From contig NC_000917.1 of the NCBI RefSeq assembly GCF_000008665.1, forward strand, positions 1,170,001-1,202,000: 32,000 nt of DNA, written 5' to 3'. Source of the stretch: Archaeoglobus fulgidus DSM 4304. Its GTDB lineage: Archaea; Halobacteriota; Archaeoglobi; Archaeoglobales; Archaeoglobaceae. Shown in pieces: positions 3,643 through 16,768 of the stretch; position 1 is the first letter of the stretch, and every line of letters starts with the position of its first letter. The position numbers and the translations under genes are program-made. The notes beneath the pieces were generated by a model that saw only the letters and a program-made list of their open reading frames with translations, searched no databases and was not told the origin of the DNA.

Positions 3643-4833
3643 ATGTACCGTCTGAAGTGCATTGAATGCGGGAAGGAATGGGGCGATGAAAACTACACCT
3701 GCGAGTGTGGAGGGCTTCTGGAGGTTGAAATAGACCTTGATGAGGTTGAAATTGACTTCAGGCTTGATGGAAGCAACATCACGGTCTGGAAGTACCGCTC
3801 TCTCCTCCCCGTTAAAATTGACCCTGTCACGCTGAAGGAGGGTGGAACTCCTCTTTACAGGGCCGAGAGGCTTGAGAAGGAGGTTGGTGTGAGGAGAGTT
3901 TATGTTAAGCACGAAGGTCTGAACCCCTCAGGCTCCTTCAAGGACAGGGGGATGACTGTAGGAGTGACCAAAGCCCTTGAGCTTGGGAGAAAAGCTGTTG
4001 CGTGTGCATCAACAGGCAACACCTCAGCCTCAATGGCGATGTATGCGGCAAAGGCGGGGCTAAAGGCCTACGTCCTGCTTCCTGCAGGCAAGGTGGCGCT
4101 GGGAAAGGTTGCTCAAGCTTTAATGCACGGGGCGAAGGTTATAGGAATCGACGGGAACTTCGATGACGCGCTCAGAATTGTGAGGGAAGTTTGCAGCAGG
4201 GAGCCAATCTACCTCCTGAACTCCATCAACCCCTTCAGGCCTGAGGGGCAGAAGACCATCGCCTACGAGATTGCAGATGAAATTGGTGTGCCCGACAGAG
4301 TTGTTCTGCCTGTGGGGAATGCCGGGAACATATCAGCAATCTACAAGGGATTTAAGGAGCTCAGAGAGGTTGGTTTGACAGATTCAATGCCCAAAATGAC
4401 GGGGATTCAGGCTGAGGGAGCGGCGCCGATTTACAGGGCTTTTAAAGAGGGAAAAGAGGACATAACACCTATGGAGAATCCGGAAACCATAGCGACGGCC
4501 ATAAGAATAGGGAATCCAGTCAGCGCGAAAAAGGCTTTAAGGGCCATCTACAGCACAAACGGGCTGGCAGAGGTTGTTAGCGATTCAGAAATCATCGAGG
4601 CGCAGAAGTTCTTAGCTGCGAAGGAGGGCATAGGGGTTGAGCCAGCCTCAGCGGCAAGCGTTGCGGGGCTGAGAAAGCTCGCAGCCAATGGTATGCTCGA
4701 CCCGGATGAAACCATCGTGTGTGTTGTGACGGGCAATTTACTCAAAGACCCGGAGACTGTTGTGAGGGTTTGCGGAGAGCCGGTGAAAGTTGAGGCGAGC
4801 GTTGAGGCTGTAATCAGGGCGATGAGGGCTTGA
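3643..4833 (+). CDS. thrC: Threonine synthase
   Basis: PLP-lysine motif LNPSGSFKDRGM, an N-terminal Cys4 zinc ribbon (CIECG...CECGG) and 396 aa length are typical of archaeal ThrC. Confidence 0.95.
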   Translation: MYRLKCIECGKEWGDENYTCECGGLLEVEIDLDEVEIDFRLDGSNITVWKYRSLLPVKIDPVTLKEGGTPLYRAERLEKEVGVRRVYVKHEGLNPSGSFKDRGMTVGVTKALELGRKAVACASTGNTSASMAMYAAKAGLKAYVLLPAGKVALGKVAQALMHGAKVIGIDGNFDDALRIVREVCSREPIYLLNSINPFRPEGQKTIAYEIADEIGVPDRVVLPVGNAGNISAIYKGFKELREVGLTDSMPKMTGIQAEGAAPIYRAFKEGKEDITPMENPETIATAIRIGNPVSAKKALRAIYSTNGLAEVVSDSEIIEAQKFLAAKEGIGVEPASAASVAGLRKLAANGMLDPDETIVCVVTGNLLKDPETVVRVCGEPVKVEASVEAVIRAMRA

Positions 4834-5208
4834 AAGCTATGAGATAAAGCCTGTTGAAGATTAGTCTGGATTCCCTTGAGAGCTCTTCCTTAACTATTTT
4901 GAGGAAATTCTGGCGGTATTCCTCACTCAAGGGTTTTGAATAGCATTGTTGGTTCAGGTAGGCTGCTGCAGCACCTGAAAGGAAAACTTTGAAAATTTCA
5001 TCCCCTGAATGGTGAGTTTCAACTCTCAGAATTTTGCAGAATCTGACGTCAAAGCCTGTCCTTTCAAACAGCCTTCGATACTCATTTTCGCTGTCGAGAA
5101 AGAACCACGGGCTTCTGAAGCTTTTGAAAATTTTTGAGGTTCTTTTATCTTTTTCAACAGATCTCAGCGCCTTGAGGAAGGTGGGAGAGTAGTTTTGCGT
5201 TGCGGGGG
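4814..5208 (-). pseudogene. Start-less 3' remnant of a Tam-like class I SAM-dependent methyltransferase gene
   Basis: My hand translation of the minus strand gives a stop-free frame from 5260 down to TGA at 4814-4816. The sequence is ...TQNYSPTFLKALRSVEKDKRTSKIFKSFRSPWFFLDSENEYRRLFERTGFDVRFCKILRVETHHSGDEIFKVFLSGAAAAYLNQQCYSKPLSEEYRQNFLKIVKEELSRESRLIFNRLYLIAFKPSSP*. There is no ATG, GTG or TTG until 38 codons from the end, which is why it is absent from the ORF track. The pattern matches the C-terminal half of trans-aconitate-methyltransferase-like enzymes. The SAM-binding N-terminal half is missing. Confidence 0.55.
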
Positions 5209-5282
5209 ATATATATACAAAACTTAAGTCTGTTTGGATAACCGCATTTAGATTTTGGTATTATTAATTTTATATTTAATTT

Positions 5283-5301
5283 GAATAATAGAAGAAAAGA
5301 T
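5283..5301 (-). terminator. Candidate oligo-T terminator downstream of the pAgo operon
   Basis: The minus strand reads atcttttcttctattattc 32-50 nt after the stop at 5333-5335. Archaeal termination uses T-rich tracts. The surrounding AT-rich background makes this weak evidence. Confidence 0.25.
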
Positions 5302-5332
5302 TAGTTAGCAGAATTATCTTCCGGTTTTCAAA

Positions 5333-6346
5333 TTAAGGTATCATTCTGGTTATTAATGAAACTAGTCCTAAGGCCTTTAAGATTGGAACCACTATCATAA
5401 ATTCTCCAATTTGCCCCAAAGTTATTTTAATTCTTTTTACAGGAAGTTCAATTGGTGGCAATCTTTCTTCAAAATATAAAAAAGAAGTTCCAACTATTAT
5501 CATTAAAATCTGCCCATGTGTTTCGTATGTAATTTTTATGCTTTCAATAGACCATAATTTGATTAACAAAAATAAAAGAGAAGACAGTACAGGAAACCAG
5601 ACTTTCTTATTTATTCTAAGCATAACTTCTTTTTTTATTATTCTGTTTAGCTCGCTTTCTGTGAAAATATATATCCTGTTCTTTTTTAGAAATAGATACA
5701 TCAAAAATACAACCAGATCAAATCTTTCAAATTTATAATTCAATATTTCAGGGATAAACTTTTCTCTTAGACTTTCTTTTTGATTTTCGTACTCCTCTGA
5801 AGTAATTAATTCCCATAACAAATATTCCTTTAAATTTTTAATTTTGGATGTATCTATATTTACATTTATTTTCTCTAAAAAAATTTGCTTACATGCCCAA
5901 TAATAAATTAACTCTTCACCTTGAGTCCTTAAGTACTCTAACAATGATTTAAAATATTCCAATTCACCAATTTTTTTGAGTATATTGAAATTCAATATTG
6001 GCAAAAGTTGAATTATTAGATTTGACTTTTCAGTAATAGGGCTTTTTTCAATTCTATTTTTCAATTTATTCCAATATATTAACAAATCCTCGCCAACAAT
6101 TAAAGCTGACACTAGGGCTGTTAAAATAGTTTCAGAGTCCAATCTTCTTCTTTCCTTAATTTTCTGAGAATAGGATTCCGCTAATTTCTTTACCTTCTTG
6201 TTTTTGTAGAAGCCATGAATGTATGCGCAAAGAACAAATCTAATCTCCTGATTAGAAATTTGTGGGTCAAACTCCCAATTATCAACAACATAATTCATCC
6301 TTTTTTCTATTTCATTTATTTTATCAATATATATTTTATCCATCAT
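5333..6346 (-). CDS. Hypothetical membrane protein; candidate pAgo-associated effector
   Basis: 337 aa from ATG at 6346. That ATG overlaps the Ago stop as ATGA (6343-6346). The N-terminal ~250 aa are K/E/I/L-rich and look helical and soluble. Hydrophobic segments (ORF-track numbering) are [18 protein letters not shown] (252-269), [15 protein letters not shown] (281-295) and [23 protein letters not shown] (314-336), plus [12 protein letters not shown] (212-223). I recognise no family. Confidence 0.7.
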
Positions 6347-7626
6347 AGGAACCACGGATTCGTTTGTAATGAGCGATTCCCTTCTGGGTTTATTGGATAT
6401 CCTCCATAACGATTTACATTTGCTATGATTCCTGCGACCAATTTTGGATAATTAACCGTAACGGGTAGATTTCTACTTCTAAATCCTCTCCAATTCATTT
6501 TAGACAGATAATATATTTCATCCAAAATCTCATGAACATTGTGGTAGTATTCTTCAGAAGTCCAATTATCGCTAACGATCTCAACACTTAATGGTTTTAT
6601 AGGGGTTACCATTTCTAATCCATTTCGTTTAAGATAAGGCTGTAAAAGTGTTAATAAGTATCTTTTAGAACTTAATTTTACTTTTGTCCCTTCATACGGA
6701 TGAAATCTATTGTTAGGGTCTCCCATTACCCAAAATGGATGAGTTTCATTTAAGTGAAGTATAGCATATTTTACGTCTCTTGATACCATTTCTTGTTTTT
6801 TTAACTCTTCAACCGTTTCTTTTAAAATCTTTGTCTCTCCATCTTTCATTTTGGGCCTTTTTCCACTTACATGTAAAGTTAACTTTTCGACATCCCAATC
6901 CGGATTACTTTTTTTGAAACCATATACCACTTTCTTAATTGTACTTTTTAAATATGTTAGATATTCACTACTCGTAACTATTGGTGAAATTTCATTCCAC
7001 AGCATTGTCCCATCTTTCTTGAAGACCATAGCAAAACAAAATAGATTTACATTATCAATACGTGTTGCGCCAGTTCCTATTATAATGTCTGAACCTTTTT
7101 CAGGATCTACATTTAAAATCCAAGGTTTTCCACCAAGTTTTGAAACAAATTGTACCAACAGATTGTCAACATAGAATGTCAAATTTCTGTTAGATAATAT
7201 ATCATATCTCATAAATTGTGATGGGATACTATTTATTAAATACGATTTAAGCTTATAATATAATGGGGTATTATATTCTGGAAGAACGAGCATAATTCCG
7301 TCCACACCCGTATCTATAGCATTATCTACTTGAGATTTGATAGAGTCAAAGTGTGGGGAATCGTAGATAAACTCAGAAATGTTTATATTATGAATATGCC
7401 ACACCTCATCAATTTTAGAACTTATTTGTGATTTCAATTGGTTTATTAAACTTGAAAACTGATTGTTATGGATTAATGCAATTTGATTATACTTTAAGGA
7501 GGGGACTTCATAAGGCCCATAATTCCTTAATCCTTTAATCAACTCACCAGTGTTTGATATTGGTACAGATGCGCCATTCCCTATACGGTATGTCAAACCA
7601 TTTTCAACTATTTTATATTCCATCAT
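6343..7626 (-). CDS. MID-PIWI-only prokaryotic Argonaute (AfPiwi/AfAgo), catalytically inactive
   Basis: 427 aa, [16 protein letters not shown]...[12 protein letters not shown] recognise this as the crystallised A. fulgidus Piwi protein. The 5'-phosphate pocket residues fall at Y123, K127, Q137 and K163 when I count them, and the chain ends in Leu427, whose carboxylate completes the metal site. The position of the first catalytic Asp reads IIIGTGAT rather than GxDV. GAGGTG at 7634-7639 lies 7 nt upstream of the ATG. Confidence 0.97.
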
Positions 7627-8363
7627 TGTTTGACACCTCTACTATTTCAAGAGGCTTAAAAACAATCTTAATTTCTCCATCAGGAGTGCTAAAAGTCTTT
7701 TCATCTTCTGAAGAACCGAAGGCTTCTTTTAAAAGCCCTGTGAGAAGGTTAAACTTATCCCGCATAGCTGTTGCATATTTTTTACCTTCAGGTGTAAGAT
7801 GTCTATGGAATGCTTGAACAGACACCCATATTTTCTTTTTGACACTTTCCCCGTACTTATCTTTAATCTTCGTATATGAGATTCGCTGGTTATTTTCTCG
7901 ATCAAGGATATTTATTTTTAGATCAACAATAATTCCAAAATTTGTATTTTGCCAATGATGAACATTAATTATTAACTCGTATTGTAGCTTTATTATATTG
8001 GAGAACTCATAGTTTTCAGTAATTTCCTTAACTAATCTCAAAGTTGATCCCAACTCTTTTAATTGCCATGGTGTAGCTATATTCTCTGACAATATATCAA
8101 GAAGATACTTTCGAAATATTTTTCCAAACAAAGCATTACTATTATCTATTTCATCAAATTCGTTTTCTATGCCATAACCATATAAATAAATTAAATCTCC
8201 GATCCTTTTTTTCCATTTACCTGGTAAAAATTCCTCATAATATGGAATTGCTGATACCTTTATCGTTTCTGGATAGTTAACGATGGGGTAAATATTAATA
8301 TAGAATTCCTGAACTTCTTACATCTGGAGTGTTCACATTACCCGAACTGAGTGGTATTTCCAT
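7613..8363 (-). CDS. Candidate Ago N-L1-L2-like partner protein (about 249 aa), interrupted by an apparent 1-nt frameshift near its 5' end
   Basis: ATG at 8363 is preceded by AGGAGG (8371-8376) with a 7-nt spacer. That frame gives MEIPLSSGNVNTPDVRSSGILY and then TAA at 8295-8297. The +1 frame is open from 8317 and reads EVQEFYINIYPIVNYPETIKVSAIPYYEEFLPGKWKKRIGDLIYLYGYGIENEFDEIDNSNALFGKIF..., continuing into the 172-aa track ORF, which starts only at a TTG at 8131. The stop at 7613 lies 14 nt inside the Ago ORF. The partner role is inferred from operon position, size and the beta-rich N-terminus. Confidence 0.7.
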
Positions 8364-8370
8364 GATAACT

Positions 8371-8376
8371 CCTCCT
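8371..8376 (-). promoter_or_regulatory. Shine-Dalgarno AGGAGG for the first gene of the pAgo operon
   Basis: The plus strand reads cctcct at 8371-8376, which is AGGAGG on the minus strand, 7 nt upstream of ATG 8363. It stands out in an AT-rich context. Confidence 0.6.
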
Positions 8377-8410
8377 AAAACTTGTTTTCATCACATCAAC
8401 TTAGGGTTTG

Positions 8411-8430
8411 GCTAAATAAATTTTAATCTT
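8411..8430 (-). promoter_or_regulatory. Candidate TATA box for the pAgo operon
   Basis: The minus strand reads aagattaaaatttatttagc, ~50-65 nt upstream of ATG 8363. This would give a ~30-nt leader containing the SD. The AT-rich background makes the call tentative. Confidence 0.3.
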
Positions 8431-8507
8431 GGACTGGAGTCTTATTAAATTGCAATTCCAGCTAAGTTAAAAATGGTTATATTTATTTTTTATCCTCAAA
8501 AAATTAC

Positions 8508-8517
8508 CTTTATTTAA
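8508..8517 (+). promoter_or_regulatory. TATA box for the secreted Cys-rich protein gene
   Basis: ctttatttaa is centred ~25 nt upstream of ATG 8538, a leaderless arrangement. Confidence 0.45.
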
Positions 8518-8537
8518 TTCACCAACAAGTTTTAACC

Positions 8538-9122
8538 ATGAAACGCTACATCCTTCTTCTGATACTTGCCGCCATCCTTCCGCTCTGCCTGCAGAGCGGA
8601 GAGCAGAATGCCGGAAGTGTGGAGAAGCTGAACTACACCATCAAGGGCTGTGGAGCTGAGAAGGTCGCTGAATACGGTGTTGAAGGCTACGAGTTTGTTG
8701 GTAGCAACCTCACAGTCCACATAATGAGAAACTGCTGCAGCGATGAGATTCTCGTGGAGAAATCCGAAAACGAATACAGAATCGTCGAGAAGGACAATGA
8801 CGGGGAAATATGCAAGTGCAACTGCATGAGCACGGTGGAGATATACGACGTCAGAGAGAAGGACTTTAAGGTCACCTTCACAGACTTTAACGGCGAAACC
8901 AAGGAAATCAAATCCCTTGAGGAGGAGTTTTGTGGATGGTCAACCTACGCTGAGTGCAAGAGCGATGCTGATTGCAAAGCGGCGGGATGCTCAGGGCAGG
9001 TTTGTGCTGGAGTTGGAGAGCAGATCGTCACGACCTGCGAGTGGAGGGAGTGCTTCGATGCTGCGAAGTACGGAATGAGATGCGGCTGCATCAACAATCA
9101 GTGCCAGTGGGCACAAAGTTAA
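8538..9122 (+). CDS. Secreted or lipid-anchored cysteine-rich protein
   Basis: Signal peptide MKRYILLLILAAILPLCLQSG. The C-terminal ~60 aa carry 10 Cys (CGWSTYAECKSDADCKAAGCSGQVCAG...TTCEWRECFDAAKYGMRCGCINNQCQW), resembling small archaeal Cys-cluster domains. Function unknown. Confidence 0.65.
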   Translation: MKRYILLLILAAILPLCLQSGEQNAGSVEKLNYTIKGCGAEKVAEYGVEGYEFVGSNLTVHIMRNCCSDEILVEKSENEYRIVEKDNDGEICKCNCMSTVEIYDVREKDFKVTFTDFNGETKEIKSLEEEFCGWSTYAECKSDADCKAAGCSGQVCAGVGEQIVTTCEWRECFDAAKYGMRCGCINNQCQWAQS

Positions 9123-9698: not shown

Positions 9699-10562
9699 TC
9701 AGCTCAGCCTCTCCCTCAGCCTGCAGAAAGCACACACGTCTCCGCTCGAAACCTCTCCGCAGATTTTGCAGTACTTAGTTTCCTCAAACTCCTCCGCTGG
9801 CCTTACTAATCCCCTGACGAAGTTCTTAACGAAGCCCGGCTTTCTCCTCTCGATGTCGTAAACAATTTCCTTCCACTCCGGATTTGGAGCGTGGGGACAC
9901 TCCATAAGAGTGTGGGGGATGTCATTAACCAGAACGTATAGCATGTTTTCTTTCTCGCTTACCTCGAAGAGAGGCTTTGCCCTTGTAACAATTTTCTCAT
10001 CAAAGGGCTCGTTTCTCGGCATCAGCTTCTCCGCCCACACTCTCGTCCCGCCGGCAACGTTTTTGATGTAGAATGAAGCTATGTCCTCAGCCGTGTGGCC
10101 TGTGGCAACAACATCAAAACTATTCTCCCTCGCAAACCTGTTCATGATGTATCTCTTTGCAGTTCCGCAGGCTGAACAGGTTTTTCTCCTCATTTTCCTC
10201 GCAACATCATCAACGGTGAAGCCGTAGTCCCTCAGCCTCACCACGTTAAGGCTGAGGTCAAGACTGGATGAAAGCTCCCTCACAACCCTCTCCGACTCTT
10301 CAGAGTAGTTGCCAATTCCAAGGTCGATGTAGAGCAGCTCAGCATCGTAGTCGAGTTCCTTCAAAACTGCAGCCAGTGCAGAGCTGTCCTTTCCCCCCGA
10401 AATCGCTATCAGCACCCTCTCCTCTGGCCTGAGAATCCTGAACCTCTTTATGCTCCTTTTAACGAGATTTCTGTAAAATTCTGGGTAGCACTTTTCGCAG
10501 AGAGCTATGCCGTAGGCTTTAAGATTCGCTACAGCCTTTCTTCCGCACTTTTTGCACTTCAT
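9699..10562 (-). CDS. TtuA/TtcA-family PP-loop tRNA 2-thiolation enzyme
   Basis: PP-loop AISGGKDSSALA is flanked by N-terminal (CKKCG...CEKC) and C-terminal (CKICG...CAFC) zinc fingers, plus a central CSACG. The ATG overlaps the stop of the upstream protease gene as ATGA (10559-10562). Confidence 0.8.
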   Translation of the reverse strand: MKCKKCGRKAVANLKAYGIALCEKCYPEFYRNLVKRSIKRFRILRPEERVLIAISGGKDSSALAAVLKELDYDAELLYIDLGIGNYSEESERVVRELSSSLDLSLNVVRLRDYGFTVDDVARKMRRKTCSACGTAKRYIMNRFARENSFDVVATGHTAEDIASFYIKNVAGGTRVWAEKLMPRNEPFDEKIVTRAKPLFEVSEKENMLYVLVNDIPHTLMECPHAPNPEWKEIVYDIERRKPGFVKNFVRGLVRPAEEFEETKYCKICGEVSSGDVCAFCRLRERLS

Positions 10563-12064
10563 AAGAGACCCCTAATGTTCGGAATTGCTATTGACATCAG
10601 GATTGAGAAGAAGACGATGAAGGCGAAAAACTTGACGACCTTCATCGACATCTCTTCAGCCCTCTCACCATACCTCCTCGCCAGCAGCTTCGCAAAGACC
10701 TCGTGGAAAACTCTCCCGCCATCGAGAGGCACGGCTGGAAGGCAGTTGAAAAGGCCAACGTAGAAGTTAATCCACCCGACCCAGTAGAGTGTGTTCAGAA
10801 CCCAGAAAACCCACTGAGGCGCGACGAAGAGGGGCTCAAGTGCTTCTGTGAAGCCCTGAAACCTGAAGGGCATTGCGATGAGGTAAAGCCACCCTCCGAC
10901 GGACTTTATCAGCTCGGGAACGGATTTCAGCTCGTCGAGCATCGCCTTTGAGTGGAAGACGTTTATTCCATCAATGGAGTCAAAGGTGCTGACGTAAACG
11001 CCCAGAAATCCCTTCTCCCCTTTTCCAGCAAGCGTCACGTTGAAGGTTCTGAAGGTTCCGTTGTCGTAAACCTCAACGCTGACTCTCTGCCCCGGCTTCG
11101 TTTCCTGCATCTTCCTCTGAAAGTCCTCGTAGCCTGTAATTCGCGTCTCGTCTATTCTGACTATCAGCATCCCTGCTTTTATCCCCGCAAGCTCCGCGGG
11201 GAACTTCTCGCCATTTTCGGTGTAGAGGCCTATCACCTTCACGCCCATCACAGCCGGAACGCTCAGAATCCTGATTTCATCGCCATTCACAATCTTTATC
11301 TCCGCAATCTCCGCATTCTGCAATACCGCCTTCACGTCATCAACGCTGCTAACCTTCACTCCATTAACCTCAACAATCCTCCCCTCAACCACTCCGCTGT
11401 CGTTCACCGCAACAAGGGCGGGCTGAACTGTAGGGAGAAGGGAGAAGAAGAGTGCGAAGGCTATGAAGGCAACAGCAAAGTTGCTAACAACTCCAGCTGA
11501 GAAAATCCTGATTCTTGCAGAACTCTTTGTCCTTTCCTTATCCATAATTTCCTTCTCCTCCGGCTCGGCAAACCCGCCTATCGGGATGAGGGCGAGAATC
11601 ACGCCAAGCGATTTTACCGTCACACCCTCGACTCTGCAGAGGATGGCATGGCTGAACTCGTGGACGATTAGAGTTACAACAAGCCCTATCGTGCCCCACA
11701 CAATGGGAATGAAGGGATTAACGCCAGGCAAAAGCAGCGCAGCCCTCGGACTTGTCAGCTCAGACGGCTGGGGAGGACTTATGAGCATTATGTAATCCGC
11801 TATCAGAATGAGAGAGAACATGAAAACCATTCCAGCGAAGACCGCAGGCAGACCGAGGTCGGCAAAGAGCCTCCAGAATCTCTTCGGTCTTGAAAGCTTC
11901 TCAAGGAGTTCAAGCCCCTTTTTCGTTCTTATCATCAAAACTGGCCCGTAAGCGGTTATGTTGTATCTCTCAAGAGTTCCTCTTCTTCTCAGCCACTCAA
12001 CCAAGCCCCAGTAGGCTCCGAAGGCGATTAGTGCGTAGGCAATGGATTCAAGCTCGGTGGACAT
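10559..12064 (-). CDS. Site-2 protease family (M50) membrane metalloprotease with PDZ domains
   Basis: Contains HEFSHAILC (HExxH) and NCLPAVPLDGGRV (the LDG motif), several transmembrane segments and central PDZ-like repeats. Confidence 0.85.
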   Translation of the reverse strand: MSTELESIAYALIAFGAYWGLVEWLRRRGTLERYNITAYGPVLMIRTKKGLELLEKLSRPKRFWRLFADLGLPAVFAGMVFMFSLILIADYIMLISPPQPSELTSPRAALLLPGVNPFIPIVWGTIGLVVTLIVHEFSHAILCRVEGVTVKSLGVILALIPIGGFAEPEEKEIMDKERTKSSARIRIFSAGVVSNFAVAFIAFALFFSLLPTVQPALVAVNDSGVVEGRIVEVNGVKVSSVDDVKAVLQNAEIAEIKIVNGDEIRILSVPAVMGVKVIGLYTENGEKFPAELAGIKAGMLIVRIDETRITGYEDFQRKMQETKPGQRVSVEVYDNGTFRTFNVTLAGKGEKGFLGVYVSTFDSIDGINVFHSKAMLDELKSVPELIKSVGGWLYLIAMPFRFQGFTEALEPLFVAPQWVFWVLNTLYWVGWINFYVGLFNCLPAVPLDGGRVFHEVFAKLLARRYGERAEEMSMKVVKFFAFIVFFSILMSIAIPNIRGLL

Positions 12065-12103
12065 TGTATTAAATAAGGGAGGTCACAATAAAAGCTTTGA
12101 GGT

Positions 12104-12115
12104 AAAAATTTATAG
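12104..12115 (+). promoter_or_regulatory. TATA box for the decarboxylase gene
   Basis: aaaaatttatag is centred ~25 nt upstream of ATG 12135. This supports the internal ATG rather than the ORF-track start at 12042. Confidence 0.45.
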
Positions 12116-12134
12116 AATCCACACAACTAAAATC

Positions 12135-13508
12135 ATGAGCTTTCCCAATGGGAGCGATGCTGAGGGAGTGCTGAAGAGGCTTGAAGACTACGCTAAGAAC
12201 GATTTTGAGCCGCACAGCAGGAGAATGTGGGGACACATCTACTACGCCGGGCTTAAGGATGTTGTTGAGCTTGCGAGGAAGGCCTATTTAATGTACATGG
12301 ATAAGACTATGCTCGACTTTACCTGCTTTCCGAGCCTTCTGAGGATGGAGAGGGAAGTTGTGCGAATGGCTTCATCATTGCTGAATGGGGACGAGGAGGT
12401 TGTGGGAAACTTCACCTACGGTGGGACTGAGAGCATAATGCTTGCCCTAAAGGCGGCAAGAGAGAAGTTCAGGAAGGAGGAAGGGGGAAATGTCGTCCCC
12501 GAAATCGTTCTGCCCGCAACGGCCCATCCTGCCTTCTGGAAGAGTGCCGAGTATCTTGGAATGAGGTGCTTGAGGGCGAAGCTCGATGATGAGCTGAGAG
12601 CTGATGTGGAGACTGTGAAGGAGCTTGTTGGTGATAAGACGGCCATGATTGTCGGCTCAGCCCCAAACTACCCCTTTGGCGTTGTTGATGACATTAAAGC
12701 CCTCTCTGACATTGCGGTTGACGGGAAACTCTGGCTGCACGTCGATGCATGCCTTGGAGGCTTTCATCTCCCCTTCTTCAGGGAGCTTGGAGAGAAAATC
12801 CCGGATTTCGATTTCAGCGTTGAGGGAGTGCACTCAATTTCAGCGGACTTCCACAAGTACGGATTGTCGCCGAGAGGGGCTTCTGTGATTCTCTACAGGA
12901 ATGCTAAGCTCAGAGAGGGGCAGATTTTTGTTATGGCCTCATGGCCGGGCTATCCTCTCGTAAACACCGCTGTGCTCTCAACCCGCTCTGCGGGAACGCT
13001 CGCAGCAGCGTGGGCGGTTATGAGCTACCTCGGTTTTGACGGCTACCTGAAACTTGCAAAGAAAACGCTCTACGCAAAGAAAAGGCTGATAGATGGGCTT
13101 ACAGAGCTTGGGCTGGAGCTGCTTGGCAGTCCAGAGGGGGCGGTTTTAGCATTTACCTCTGAGAGGCACAACCTCTTCAAAGTGAGCACTCTCATGGCTG
13201 AGAAAGGGTGGTATGTGCAGTCGCAGCCCGGCTCCAAGAAACTGGGCTTTCCGAGGAGTCTGCACTTCTCGGTAATTCCGGGCCATGCGGAGGTTGTTGA
13301 CGAGTTTCTTGAGGACATGAGGGAGGTGCTGCCAGAGTGCGAGTGCAGCTATCCAGAAATGTCGTCCTTTGACGTTTCAAAGCTCAAATTCGGTGAGGAT
13401 GGACTGCCAGAAGATTCAGAGCTTATTTCAGAGCTAATCCACTCCATGCCGCCTGAGATTGTTGAGAGCGTGTTCAAGCAATTCATCAACGAGCTAATAT
13501 TCCGCTGA
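12135..13508 (+). CDS. PLP-dependent group II decarboxylase / sphingosine-1-phosphate-lyase-like enzyme
   Basis: PLP-lysine motif SADFHKYGLSP and fold-type I features (GGTESIMLALKAAR, LHVDACLGG). 457 aa from ATG 12135. Confidence 0.78.
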   Translation: MSFPNGSDAEGVLKRLEDYAKNDFEPHSRRMWGHIYYAGLKDVVELARKAYLMYMDKTMLDFTCFPSLLRMEREVVRMASSLLNGDEEVVGNFTYGGTESIMLALKAAREKFRKEEGGNVVPEIVLPATAHPAFWKSAEYLGMRCLRAKLDDELRADVETVKELVGDKTAMIVGSAPNYPFGVVDDIKALSDIAVDGKLWLHVDACLGGFHLPFFRELGEKIPDFDFSVEGVHSISADFHKYGLSPRGASVILYRNAKLREGQIFVMASWPGYPLVNTAVLSTRSAGTLAAAWAVMSYLGFDGYLKLAKKTLYAKKRLIDGLTELGLELLGSPEGAVLAFTSERHNLFKVSTLMAEKGWYVQSQPGSKKLGFPRSLHFSVIPGHAEVVDEFLEDMREVLPECECSYPEMSSFDVSKLKFGEDGLPEDSELISELIHSMPPEIVESVFKQFINELIFR

Positions 13509-15100: not shown

Positions 15101-16216
15101 ATGCTCAGGCTCATACTTTCGGGATTCTTTGCCTACGCCTCGCTTAGCTGCGTCATTCCAATCATCCCCTCCTACGCCTCCTCACTTGGAGCTTCCGTCT
15201 TTCTCTCAGCTTTTGCTGCTGGAGTCTTCGCTTTATTTCCCGCAATAGCCATGACACCCTTCGGTATGCTGAGCGAGGTTTACGGGAGGAGGCGTTTTCT
15301 TGTTGCAGGGGCAGTTACAAGCCTTCTTGCATCTCTGCTCTATCTGCAATCCAGCACTGCAGAACTTCTCGTTTTTTCGAGGACTCTACATGGCTTGGGG
15401 AGTGCCCTCTACATCCCCTCCATCAATGCATTGGTTGCTGACATCTCAGAGGAGAGCAGAAGGGGAGAGGCCATGGGGAAGCTGCAAACCGCATTGATGC
15501 TCGGATTCTTTGCCGGCCCGCTTGCAGGGGGTTTTGTTTCGGATTTCTTTGGTGTTAAGGCAGTCTTCCTGCTCGCTCTGGTCTTTTCTGCTGCAGCACT
15601 TGTTCCTGTTGTTGGGGTGAGGGAAAGGAGCAAGGGCGGGGAGATTGGAAAGCAGTTCATCTTTCCGAGAAAGCTTGCCCCGCTGTTTGCGGTGATGTTT
15701 GTGGGAATGGCGACCGGCTCTTCTCTTGCACTCTTCGCCATTCCATTCTACGCTCCAGAGCTTAACATATCCCAGCAGCAGGCAGGATTGCTTGTTGCTG
15801 TGCTTTTCCTCTTCTCAGCCATCATTAGAGTTCCCGCAGGGATACTGGCAGACAGGGCTGGAAGAAATGTTACCGCCCTTTTGGGGATGGTAGTCACAGG
15901 CTTGGGGCTTTTTTCCGCATTTAAGCCCGATTTTCCCTTCCTGTTTCTCGCCTCTCTGCTCTGCGGCGCAGGAAACGGCATTGTGAACACTGCAGTCTTT
16001 GCCGCAGCCTCCGACTACGAGAACAGGGGGTATGCGATGGGCGTGGCGAACACAGTCCTCAACGCAGGAATTTTCGCTGGAACAACCTTGGCCGGATTTA
16101 TGGCAGGATTTCTCAGCTTTCAGAGCATGATGCTGATTCTTGCCGCAGCAACTCTGCTCTTCTCCCCTATATCACTATCGAAAGGCTTTGGCAGCATCTC
16201 TGAGGTTGAGAGATAA
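15101..16216 (+). CDS. Major facilitator superfamily transporter
   Basis: About 11-12 hydrophobic segments. MFS motif-A-like loops are present in both halves (GMLSEVYGRRRFL and GILADRAGRN). Confidence 0.8.
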   Translation: MLRLILSGFFAYASLSCVIPIIPSYASSLGASVFLSAFAAGVFALFPAIAMTPFGMLSEVYGRRRFLVAGAVTSLLASLLYLQSSTAELLVFSRTLHGLGSALYIPSINALVADISEESRRGEAMGKLQTALMLGFFAGPLAGGFVSDFFGVKAVFLLALVFSAAALVPVVGVRERSKGGEIGKQFIFPRKLAPLFAVMFVGMATGSSLALFAIPFYAPELNISQQQAGLLVAVLFLFSAIIRVPAGILADRAGRNVTALLGMVVTGLGLFSAFKPDFPFLFLASLLCGAGNGIVNTAVFAAASDYENRGYAMGVANTVLNAGIFAGTTLAGFMAGFLSFQSMMLILAAATLLFSPISLSKGFGSISEVER

Positions 16217-16768
16217 AAGATACTGCTTCAAGTCCCTTTTCAGGGCTGAAACTTCCCCCTTTTTAGCGCAGACTGGATAAATAACGTGCCTCCATTTTTC
16301 CCACGGCGGTTGCATCCCCAGCATCTCGGCAATTTTGTTGAGATTGGTGATATCATCAACCTTATCCATTTTATTGGCTGCAAGAAAGACTCTCGGTGTG
16401 ACATCATTCAGAAACTCGAACATCTCTATCTCAACGGGGATGTATCCTCTTTTTTCCCACCTCTCAGCAATTTCGAGAAAGGAGCTTGCGTCGATAACCT
16501 CGACTGACGCAACTATTCTCCTTGCATTGGTTTCGATGTACTCAACAACGAAATCCTTCACCCTCTCGCTGAAGTTTCTGCTGTAGCCGCTCACGTAGCC
16601 GAATCCGGGCAAATCGGTGAAAATTACACTTCCAACCTGAAAGGAGTTCGGTCTGATGGTCGTTCCGGGCTTTTTTCCCTTCCTGACCTCGAATTTGAAG
16701 AGGGCTGAGAATAAGGTTGACTTTCCAACGTTTGACCTGCCTGCGAATATGACCTCCTTTACTTTCAT
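16175..16768 (-). CDS. engB: GTP-binding protein EngB (YihA/YsxC)
   Basis: G1 GRSNVGKST, G3 DLPGFG, G4 NKMDK, and 197 aa length. Confidence 0.9.
   Translation of the reverse strand: MKVKEVIFAGRSNVGKSTLFSALFKFEVRKGKKPGTTIRPNSFQVGSVIFTDLPGFGYVSGYSRNFSERVKDFVVEYIETNARRIVASVEVIDASSFLEIAERWEKRGYIPVEIEMFEFLNDVTPRVFLAANKMDKVDDITNLNKIAEMLGMQPPWEKWRHVIYPVCAKKGEVSALKRDLKQYLLSLNLRDAAKAFR

What the first reader, a model, noticed from the sequence alone, without database searches (positions are those of the whole stretch)
8295..8320. Apparent 1-nt frameshift near the 5' end of the Ago partner gene
The only start with a strong RBS (AGGAGG-7nt-ATG at 8363) opens a frame that stops after 22 codons, at TAA 8295-8297. 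The +1 frame opens just after its own TAA at 8318-8320 and continues for 235 codons into the ORF that ends inside the Ago gene. That frame has no ATG or GTG before the TTG at 8131. Both frames are open only in the 20-nt window 8298-8317 (minus strand GAAGTTCAGGAATTCTATAT). Removing one nucleotide just upstream of that window, for example one A from the minus-strand GTAAGAAG at 8314-8321 (which destroys the frame-2 TAA), gives one continuous 249-aa protein, MEIPLSSGNVNTPDV-EVQEFYINIYPIVNYPE... There are three possible explanations. It could be a sequencing or assembly error. It could be a genuine inactivating mutation that leaves a decaying system. It could be programmed +1 frameshifting that limits how much partner protein is made. 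The three have very different biological meanings.
Basis: seen in the sequence. Interest (0 to 1): 0.6.

Follow-up and report, generated by a model that had tools for sequence, protein, structure and literature searches.

The report
Known broken Argonaute partner gene
The famous Argonaute of the heat-loving microbe Archaeoglobus fulgidus has a partner gene that is broken in this strain by a real two-letter deletion, which was already published in 2024; the only extra is that wild populations have broken the same defence operon in at least nine different ways.

Summary
The frameshift is real and already published. The window is the Archaeoglobus fulgidus type-strain genome; the gene is AfAgo-N, the N-L1-L2 partner of AfAgo. 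Manakova et al. 2024 (PMC10954474) report a 2-bp deletion relative to strain DSM 8774 (250 aa), restored it and solved structures.

My checks: (1) Not a sequencing error: independently assembled contigs match the window letter for letter over 14-19 kb. (2) The lesion is loss of TA from TATATAT at 8297/8298, not an extra base at 8314-8321. (3) No conserved frameshift signal and no +1 tRNA re-pairing; only a -2 slip at the last codon could re-pair (untested, unlikely).

Not found in the paper: the same deletion sits in two other haplotypes, one from a vent metagenome. Across A. fulgidus loci the 3-kb operon shows nine distinct disruptions (eight frameshifts, one IS-type junction) and no substitutions away from contig ends, while flanking genes stay intact. 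That suggests repeated loss of a costly defence system; indel-biased mutation is a live rival. The scan had not noted this on other DNA.

The parts
8370..8376 (-). Shine-Dalgarno-like AGGAGG (8376-8371) and first spacer base, 7 nt before the true start
   Evidence: sequence
8295..8363 (-). 5' half of AfAgo-N: codons 1-22 (ending SSGILY) and the premature TAA created by the deletion
   Evidence: identical to residues 1-22 of intact P0001; G19, L21 invariant in 48 aligned homologs
8297..8302 (-). TA-repeat tract, TATAT(T) here versus TATATAT(T) in intact alleles: site of the 2-bp deletion
   Evidence: (AT put in behind 8297 in X8, X10); PMC10954474
7613..8299 (-). 3' part of AfAgo-N (residues 23-250), now out of frame with the start; databases annotate only the 172-aa piece from TTG 8131
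6343..7626 (-). AfAgo (AF1318), MID-PIWI only, 427 aa, start overlaps the AfAgo-N stop; intact here
   Evidence: PF02171; PADLOC pAgo, E 5e-60
5333..6346 (-). AF1317, 337 aa, putative membrane effector (SiAga2-like per the paper); intact here
   Evidence: PMC10954474; effector role not tested here
5200..8500 (.). Low-GC island (24-35% GC against about 52% in the flanks) that carries the operon

Best explanation
A genuine loss-of-function mutation. One TA unit was lost from a TATATAT tract at codons 21-23 of the AfAgo-N gene (shown by comparison; slipped-strand mispairing as the cause is inferred). Ribosomes starting at ATG 8363 stop after 22 codons, so the 250-aa N-L1-L2 subunit that normally pairs with AfAgo to form the guide-RNA/target-DNA binding cleft is not made (shown in vitro for the restored protein in PMC10954474; its absence in vivo is inferred). 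The sensor half of a three-gene Argonaute/membrane-effector defence operon is thus crippled, and the downstream overlapping genes may be translated less (inferred). It is one of at least nine different disruptions of this operon in A. fulgidus populations, so the system is being lost repeatedly.
For: Published 2-bp deletion versus DSM 8774. Intact alleles differ from the window in the operon only by these 2 bp. Re-sequenced contigs identical to the window: L029 18,938 bp, L034 17,153 bp, L035 14,191 bp at 100%, X1 without differences. 47 of 47 full-length homologs (242-259 aa, about 56-74% identity) are continuous across the site with G[VIN]Lx[IV]N; most use TAC ATY there, so no repeat or slip site is conserved. 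Other lesions in the same gene and operon in other samples: A lost from an A7 run (6 samples), IS-type end joined inside AfAgo-N (2 runs), 8-bp duplication and C loss in Ago, four indels in the effector gene; no flanking gene is broken in 23 samples.
Against: No proteomics or ribosome profiling was available, so low-level read-through is not excluded. A -2 slip at the last sense codon would re-pair perfectly and give exactly the intact protein. Ago and the effector gene remain intact in all three haplotypes with this deletion, which fits a recent lesion but also a retained partial function.
Confidence: 0.92

Rival explanations
1. Sequencing or assembly error in the reference genome.
For: The break lies in a short AT repeat, and other strains are intact.
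Against: Independent de novo contigs from several runs are identical to the window across the site and over 14-19 kb; two further haplotypes that differ from the window by 82-87 substitutions in 17 kb carry the same deletion.
Confidence: 0.005
2. Programmed +1 ribosomal frameshifting in the 20-nt window limits partner production.
For: Both frames are open over 20 nt and a stop follows directly. The first 80 nt downstream fold somewhat better than shuffles (z -2.6).
Against: No codon from 16 to 22 can re-pair after a +1 shift. A shift early in the window would replace the conserved S17/G19/L21 residues. No homolog locus examined is split at this site. The fold signal vanishes with a 100-nt window (z -0.7) and the same sequence is in intact alleles.
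Confidence: 0.01
3. Leaky -2 slippage: with the A site on UAA, peptidyl-tRNA-Tyr slips back two bases (C-UAU-AU-UAA), re-pairs on UAU and translation yields the exact intact 250-aa protein at a low level, attenuating rather than abolishing the system.
For: The -2 product equals P0001 letter for letter, and codon 22 is the only one of codons 16-22 with a matching re-pairing triplet. The allele is shared by three haplotypes with Ago and effector intact.
Against: The re-pairing is an automatic consequence of any dinucleotide-repeat contraction, not a sign of selection. No stimulatory element is robustly predicted. The other eight disruptions have no such escape. The archaeal recoding review describes -1 cases (fucA1, some viruses) in the passages read; I found no archaeal -2 case.
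Confidence: 0.04
4. Extension of the best explanation: loss of the operon is positively selected (self-toxicity or cost of an abortive-infection system), not merely tolerated.
For: Eight distinct frameshifting indels plus one IS-type junction and zero substitutions away from contig ends in about 3.0 kb of operon; flanking genes show many substitutions and no coding indels. If 20-40% of neutral changes were indels, 8 of 8 has probability 3e-6 to 7e-4; counting only the 4 lesions seen in two or more samples, 0.002 to 0.03 (the indel fraction is assumed, not measured). The related SiAgo system kills cells by membrane depolarisation (PMC11788926).
Against: The island has 3.7 times more homopolymer runs per kb than its flanks. 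Second hits in already broken operons (L007, L021) are also indels, which points to indel-biased mutation or assembly error. Four effector indels rest on one contig each. Loci were fetched by exact protein match, so missense changes in the queried gene were invisible, although every lesion also appeared in a query on another gene and cluster members show no credible missense variant. Samples cluster in a few oil-field studies.
Confidence: 0.45
5. A shorter product (172 aa from TTG 8131, or re-initiation at ATT 8299 behind a weak AGGA) is made and keeps some function.
For: The 172-aa ORF is what databases annotate; ATT 8299 overlaps the premature stop and has AGGA 7 nt upstream.
Against: No SD-like sequence before TTG 8131; the missing first 78 residues contain 9 invariant positions (G19, L21, N24, Y31, P32, W51, K53, R54, G63); ATT is a rare start (general knowledge).
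Confidence: 0.04

Closest known systems
AfAgo-N / AfAgo / Af1317 operon of Archaeoglobus fulgidus DSM 4304 (Manakova et al. 2024, PMC10954474; PDB 8ok9, 8old, 8olj, 8pvv, 8qg0)
   Same: It is this very locus and this very lesion: 172-aa annotated ORF, 2-bp (TA) deletion, premature stop, 250-aa intact allele in DSM 8774, low-GC island.
   Different: Nothing in the lesion itself. In the sections read, the paper compares only two strains; it does not report the same deletion in other haplotypes or the other eight disruptions found here.
SiAgo-SiAga1-SiAga2 abortive-infection system of Sulfolobus islandicus (PMC11788926)
   Same: Three genes: N-L1-L2-like partner, MID-PIWI Argonaute, membrane effector; heterodimeric sensor.
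   Different: SiAgo system is intact with anti-viral killing shown in vivo; AfAgo is long-B by phylogeny, its effector activity is untested, and this strain's partner gene is broken.
fucA1 of Saccharolobus (Sulfolobus) solfataricus, programmed -1 frameshifting (PMC8211752, PMC1616953)
   Same: Archaeal gene split by a strain-specific indel in an A/T-rich tract, with full-length alleles in sister strains: a precedent that such a lesion can be read through.
   Different: fucA1 needs -1 at a heptameric slippery site with a stem-loop and about 10% efficiency was measured; here the shift needed is +1 or -2, there is no heptamer, no robust structure and no evidence of product.

Membership tests
AfAgo-N (N-L1-L2 subunit of split long-B pAgo) | Sequence identity to the solved AfAgo-N protein | tested here: met
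   Residues 23-250 identical to PDB 8ok9_C/8pvv_C, E 1e-152; intact P0001 identical to the tagged construct over 250 aa
AfAgo-N (N-L1-L2 subunit of split long-B pAgo) | Gene directly upstream of and overlapping a MID-PIWI-only Argonaute, with an effector gene downstream | tested here: met
   same order in homolog loci L047, L050, L053, L055, L056, L058
AfAgo-N (N-L1-L2 subunit of split long-B pAgo) | Forms a heterodimer with AfAgo | not tested
   Shown experimentally for the restored protein in PMC10954474; not re-tested here
Strain-level frameshift pseudogene (disrupted allele) | Lesion reproducible in independent sequencing | tested here: met
Strain-level frameshift pseudogene (disrupted allele) | Intact orthologous alleles that differ by the indel | tested here: met
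   L001-L010 encode 250 aa; only difference in the operon versus DSM 8774 is the TA
Strain-level frameshift pseudogene (disrupted allele) | No full-length product in vivo | not testable with these tools
   needs proteomics or ribosome profiling
Programmed ribosomal frameshift site | Split-frame architecture conserved across homologs | tested here: not met
   47/47 full-length homologs continuous; all 14 homolog loci with a motif match are in one frame at this junction
Programmed ribosomal frameshift site | Shift-prone sequence allowing tRNA re-pairing in the needed direction | tested here: inconclusive
   +1: none at codons 16-22; -2: perfect UAU to UAU at codon 22, but not conserved (mostly TAC in homologs)
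Programmed ribosomal frameshift site | Stimulatory RNA structure next to the site | tested here: inconclusive
   z -2.6 for 80 nt, -0.7 for 100 nt, 0.1 across the site; no Rfam family
Programmed ribosomal frameshift site | Trans-frame product detected | not testable with these tools
   no proteomic data available
Phase-variable simple-sequence-repeat locus | Long repeat tract that switches reversibly, with several lengths in a population | tested here: not met
   only 3.5 versus 2.5 TA units, two alleles, no longer variants among the loci; contigs cannot show rare revertants

The most novel reading that the evidence does not exclude
The deleted allele is an attenuator rather than a null: a -2 slip of peptidyl-tRNA-Tyr at the premature UAA regenerates the exact intact AfAgo-N at a low rate, keeping a toxic Argonaute defence system at reduced dose; this would be an archaeal -2 frameshift in a cellular gene and would explain why three haplotypes share the allele with Ago and effector intact.
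Probability: 0.04. Interest if true: 0.7.

Novelty: already known. Interest (0 to 1): 0.22.

Why it matters
The lesion explains why one of the most-studied Argonautes was treated for two decades as a stand-alone MID-PIWI protein, but that point was made in 2024 (PMC10954474). What this check adds is modest: the break is not a database error and probably not a culture-collection accident, and the operon has been knocked out many times in natural A. fulgidus populations. If that reflects selection, intact (DSM 8774) and broken strains form a ready natural comparison for the cost of an Argonaute abortive-infection system.

Tried and rejected
Sequencing error: rejected. One-base repair at 8314-8321: rejected, wrong size and place. 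RNA evidence: no RNA holder listed, which says nothing about expression. Rfam scan 4800-8700: one chance-level hit only. Afu-277 small RNA: could not be located, the 2002 paper is not held and the supplement search gave no match. Identity of assembly GCA_900069765.1: no paper found. DNA pattern scan of metagenome contigs: no match. Alignment-based scan of genome contigs failed to run. Plasmid collection: no match. Whether the TA deletion arose once or several times: unresolved, no other marker groups the three haplotypes exclusively. Two apparent stop changes in flanking genes were artefacts of scoring multi-base codon changes singly; tblastn shows those genes intact. The sigma-70 promoter scan does not apply to archaea and was not used. 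No structure or complex prediction was run, because solved structures exist.

Full report
Identity of the locus. The window lies in a single-contig genome of 2,178,400 bases. Three minus-strand genes sit in a low-GC island of about 5200-8500 (24-35% GC against about 52%): the broken gene (8363-7613), a 427-aa MID-PIWI Argonaute (7626-6343; PF02171, PADLOC pAgo) and a 337-aa gene (6346-5333). The long open frame is identical, from residue 23 on, to the solved protein 'Archaeoglobus fulgidus AfAgo-N' (PDB 8ok9, 8pvv). This is the AfAgo operon of the A. fulgidus type strain DSM 4304 (strain inferred from these matches and from PMC10954474).

Observation. The proposed repair does not hold. Twenty-five different single-base deletions between 8295 and 8320 all give a 249-aa frame, so that exercise cannot place the lesion.

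What the lesion is. Laying four public runs on 7500-8700 shows one difference only: AT put in behind 8297 in a crude-oil and a subsurface metagenome, and none in a synthetic community and a hydrothermal-vent metagenome. Alignment of fetched loci to DSM 8774 (CP006577.1) confirms that the window lacks one TA of TATATAT and has no other change in the operon. The intact gene reads ...GGA ATT CTA TAT ATT AAT ATT TAC..., 250 aa. So frame 0 is the true frame up to Tyr22 and the break is at the very end of the doubly open window.

It is published. Manakova et al. 2024 (PMC10954474) state that the upstream 172-aa ORF of DSM 4304 has a premature stop due to a 2-bp deletion relative to the 250-aa protein of DSM 8774, inserted the missing TA, solved the structure as N-L1-L2 domains, and showed a heterodimer with AfAgo that binds RNA-guided DNA targets better than AfAgo alone. 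They also read the small RNA Afu-277 as a decay fragment of the untranslated part of this mRNA; I could not locate it.

Sequencing error is excluded. Contigs L029, L034 (both from run ERR9765783) and L035 (a JGI sample) are 100% identical to the genome over 18.9, 17.2 and 14.2 kb, and run X1 from 2013 matches too. These differ from the window by 82 and 87 substitutions in 17 kb but from DSM 8774 by only 10 in 21 kb and 3 in 17 kb; L032 also lacks the IS that the type strain has just before the window start. The vent haplotype is therefore not the type strain, which argues that the deletion exists in nature. Whether it arose once or recurred at the repeat is unresolved.

Programmed frameshifting. 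A +1 shift finds no re-pairing codon among codons 16-22. Homolog loci are in one frame at the site and mostly use TAC, which removes the repeat. Downstream RNA structure is not robust (z -2.6 at 80 nt, -0.7 at 100 nt) and pre-exists in intact alleles. One loophole remains: a -2 slip at Tyr22 re-pairs UAU on UAU and would give exactly P0001. That follows automatically from a dinucleotide contraction and is not evidence of use; the archaeal precedent fucA1 (PMC8211752) shows such lesions can be read through, so I leave about 4%.

The wider pattern, not seen in the sections of the paper I read. Among 23 A. fulgidus samples examined, five have an intact operon, 17 a disrupted one and one is incomplete; this ratio is biased by my targeted look-ups and is not a frequency. 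The distinct lesions, in approximate window coordinates: TA loss at 8297; A loss from an A7 run at 8206-8212 (six samples); a junction to an IS-type repeated end at about 8235 (two runs; 100% to genome position 169,017-169,088, beside ORFs that look like an integrase-core transposase); an 8-bp duplication at 6813 and a C loss at 6375 in Ago; and four single-base indels in the effector gene at about 6049, 5977, 5636 and 5420. No substitution was found in the operon away from contig ends, while flanking genes carry many substitutions and no coding indel or stop. Some more distant homolog loci are broken as well (L041, L048, L052, L058). Selection for loss of a self-toxic system is a natural reading, since the related SiAgo system kills by membrane depolarisation (PMC11788926). 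Against it: the island is richer in homopolymer runs (3.6 versus 1.0 per kb), second hits in already broken operons are also indels, and the four effector indels rest on single contigs. I put selection for loss at about 45% and relaxed selection with indel-biased mutation or assembly noise at the rest.

Mechanism, with status. Shown by sequence comparison: 2-bp loss, premature stop, intact alleles elsewhere. Shown in the literature: function of the intact subunit in vitro. Inferred: slipped-strand origin; no full-length subunit in this strain; reduced translation of the overlapping downstream genes; loss of defence.

Verdict. Real, correctly spotted, slightly mis-described, and already known. 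Interest 0.22, mostly for the repeated-loss pattern. Earlier scan notes on this window agree on the operon and island; look-ups by words, sequence and relatives found nothing on other DNA.

Noticed in passing
window 5333-8363; loci L003, L004, L006-L009, L018-L023, L036, L060: Nine distinct disruptions (eight frameshifting indels, one IS-type junction) and no substitutions away from contig ends in the three-gene operon across A. fulgidus samples; flanking genes intact.
   Followed up: partly
L032/L027 (ERR15087784) and L033/L028 (GCA_900069765.1): Same TA deletion on haplotypes nearly identical to DSM 8774 and 82-87 substitutions per 17 kb away from the type strain; the type strain's differences come in clusters (window 15967-16727, and 2133 downward) that look like recombination tracts.
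   Followed up: partly
L060:1-72 and L036:1-28; genome C1:169017-169088: End of a repeated IS-type element (7 related places in the genome) joined to AfAgo-N at about window 8235 in two crude-oil runs: probable IS insertion.
   Followed up: partly
about 780-1740 bases before the window start (G000:C1:1168260-1169220): IS present in the type strain and GCA_900069765.1 but absent from DSM 8774, the vent haplotype and the oil-field haplotypes L031, L036, L038: a polymorphic insertion.
   Followed up: partly
window 9699-13508 (decarboxylase-like, M50 peptidase, TtuA-like genes): 3.7 kb beside the island with no change at all among the loci, like the island itself, while nearer and farther genes vary: possibly a recent sweep of this region.
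   Followed up: no
L004/L024:Ago gene (SRR23823832): Carries both the 8-bp duplication (alone in L008, L009) and the C loss (alone in L003): recombinant or chimeric assembly. The C loss replaces the last ten residues of Ago, whose C-terminal end binds the guide 5'-phosphate metal (from memory).
   Followed up: no
L041 (G067:C3:55161-55545), L048, L052, L058: Homologous operons in other organisms are also broken: frameshifts in the partner gene (L041, L058), a stop in the partner gene (L052), stops and a frameshift in Ago (L048).
   Followed up: no
window 8299-8310 (-): ATT overlapping the premature TAA, 7 nt behind AGGA: a conceivable weak re-initiation site giving residues 23-250.
   Followed up: no
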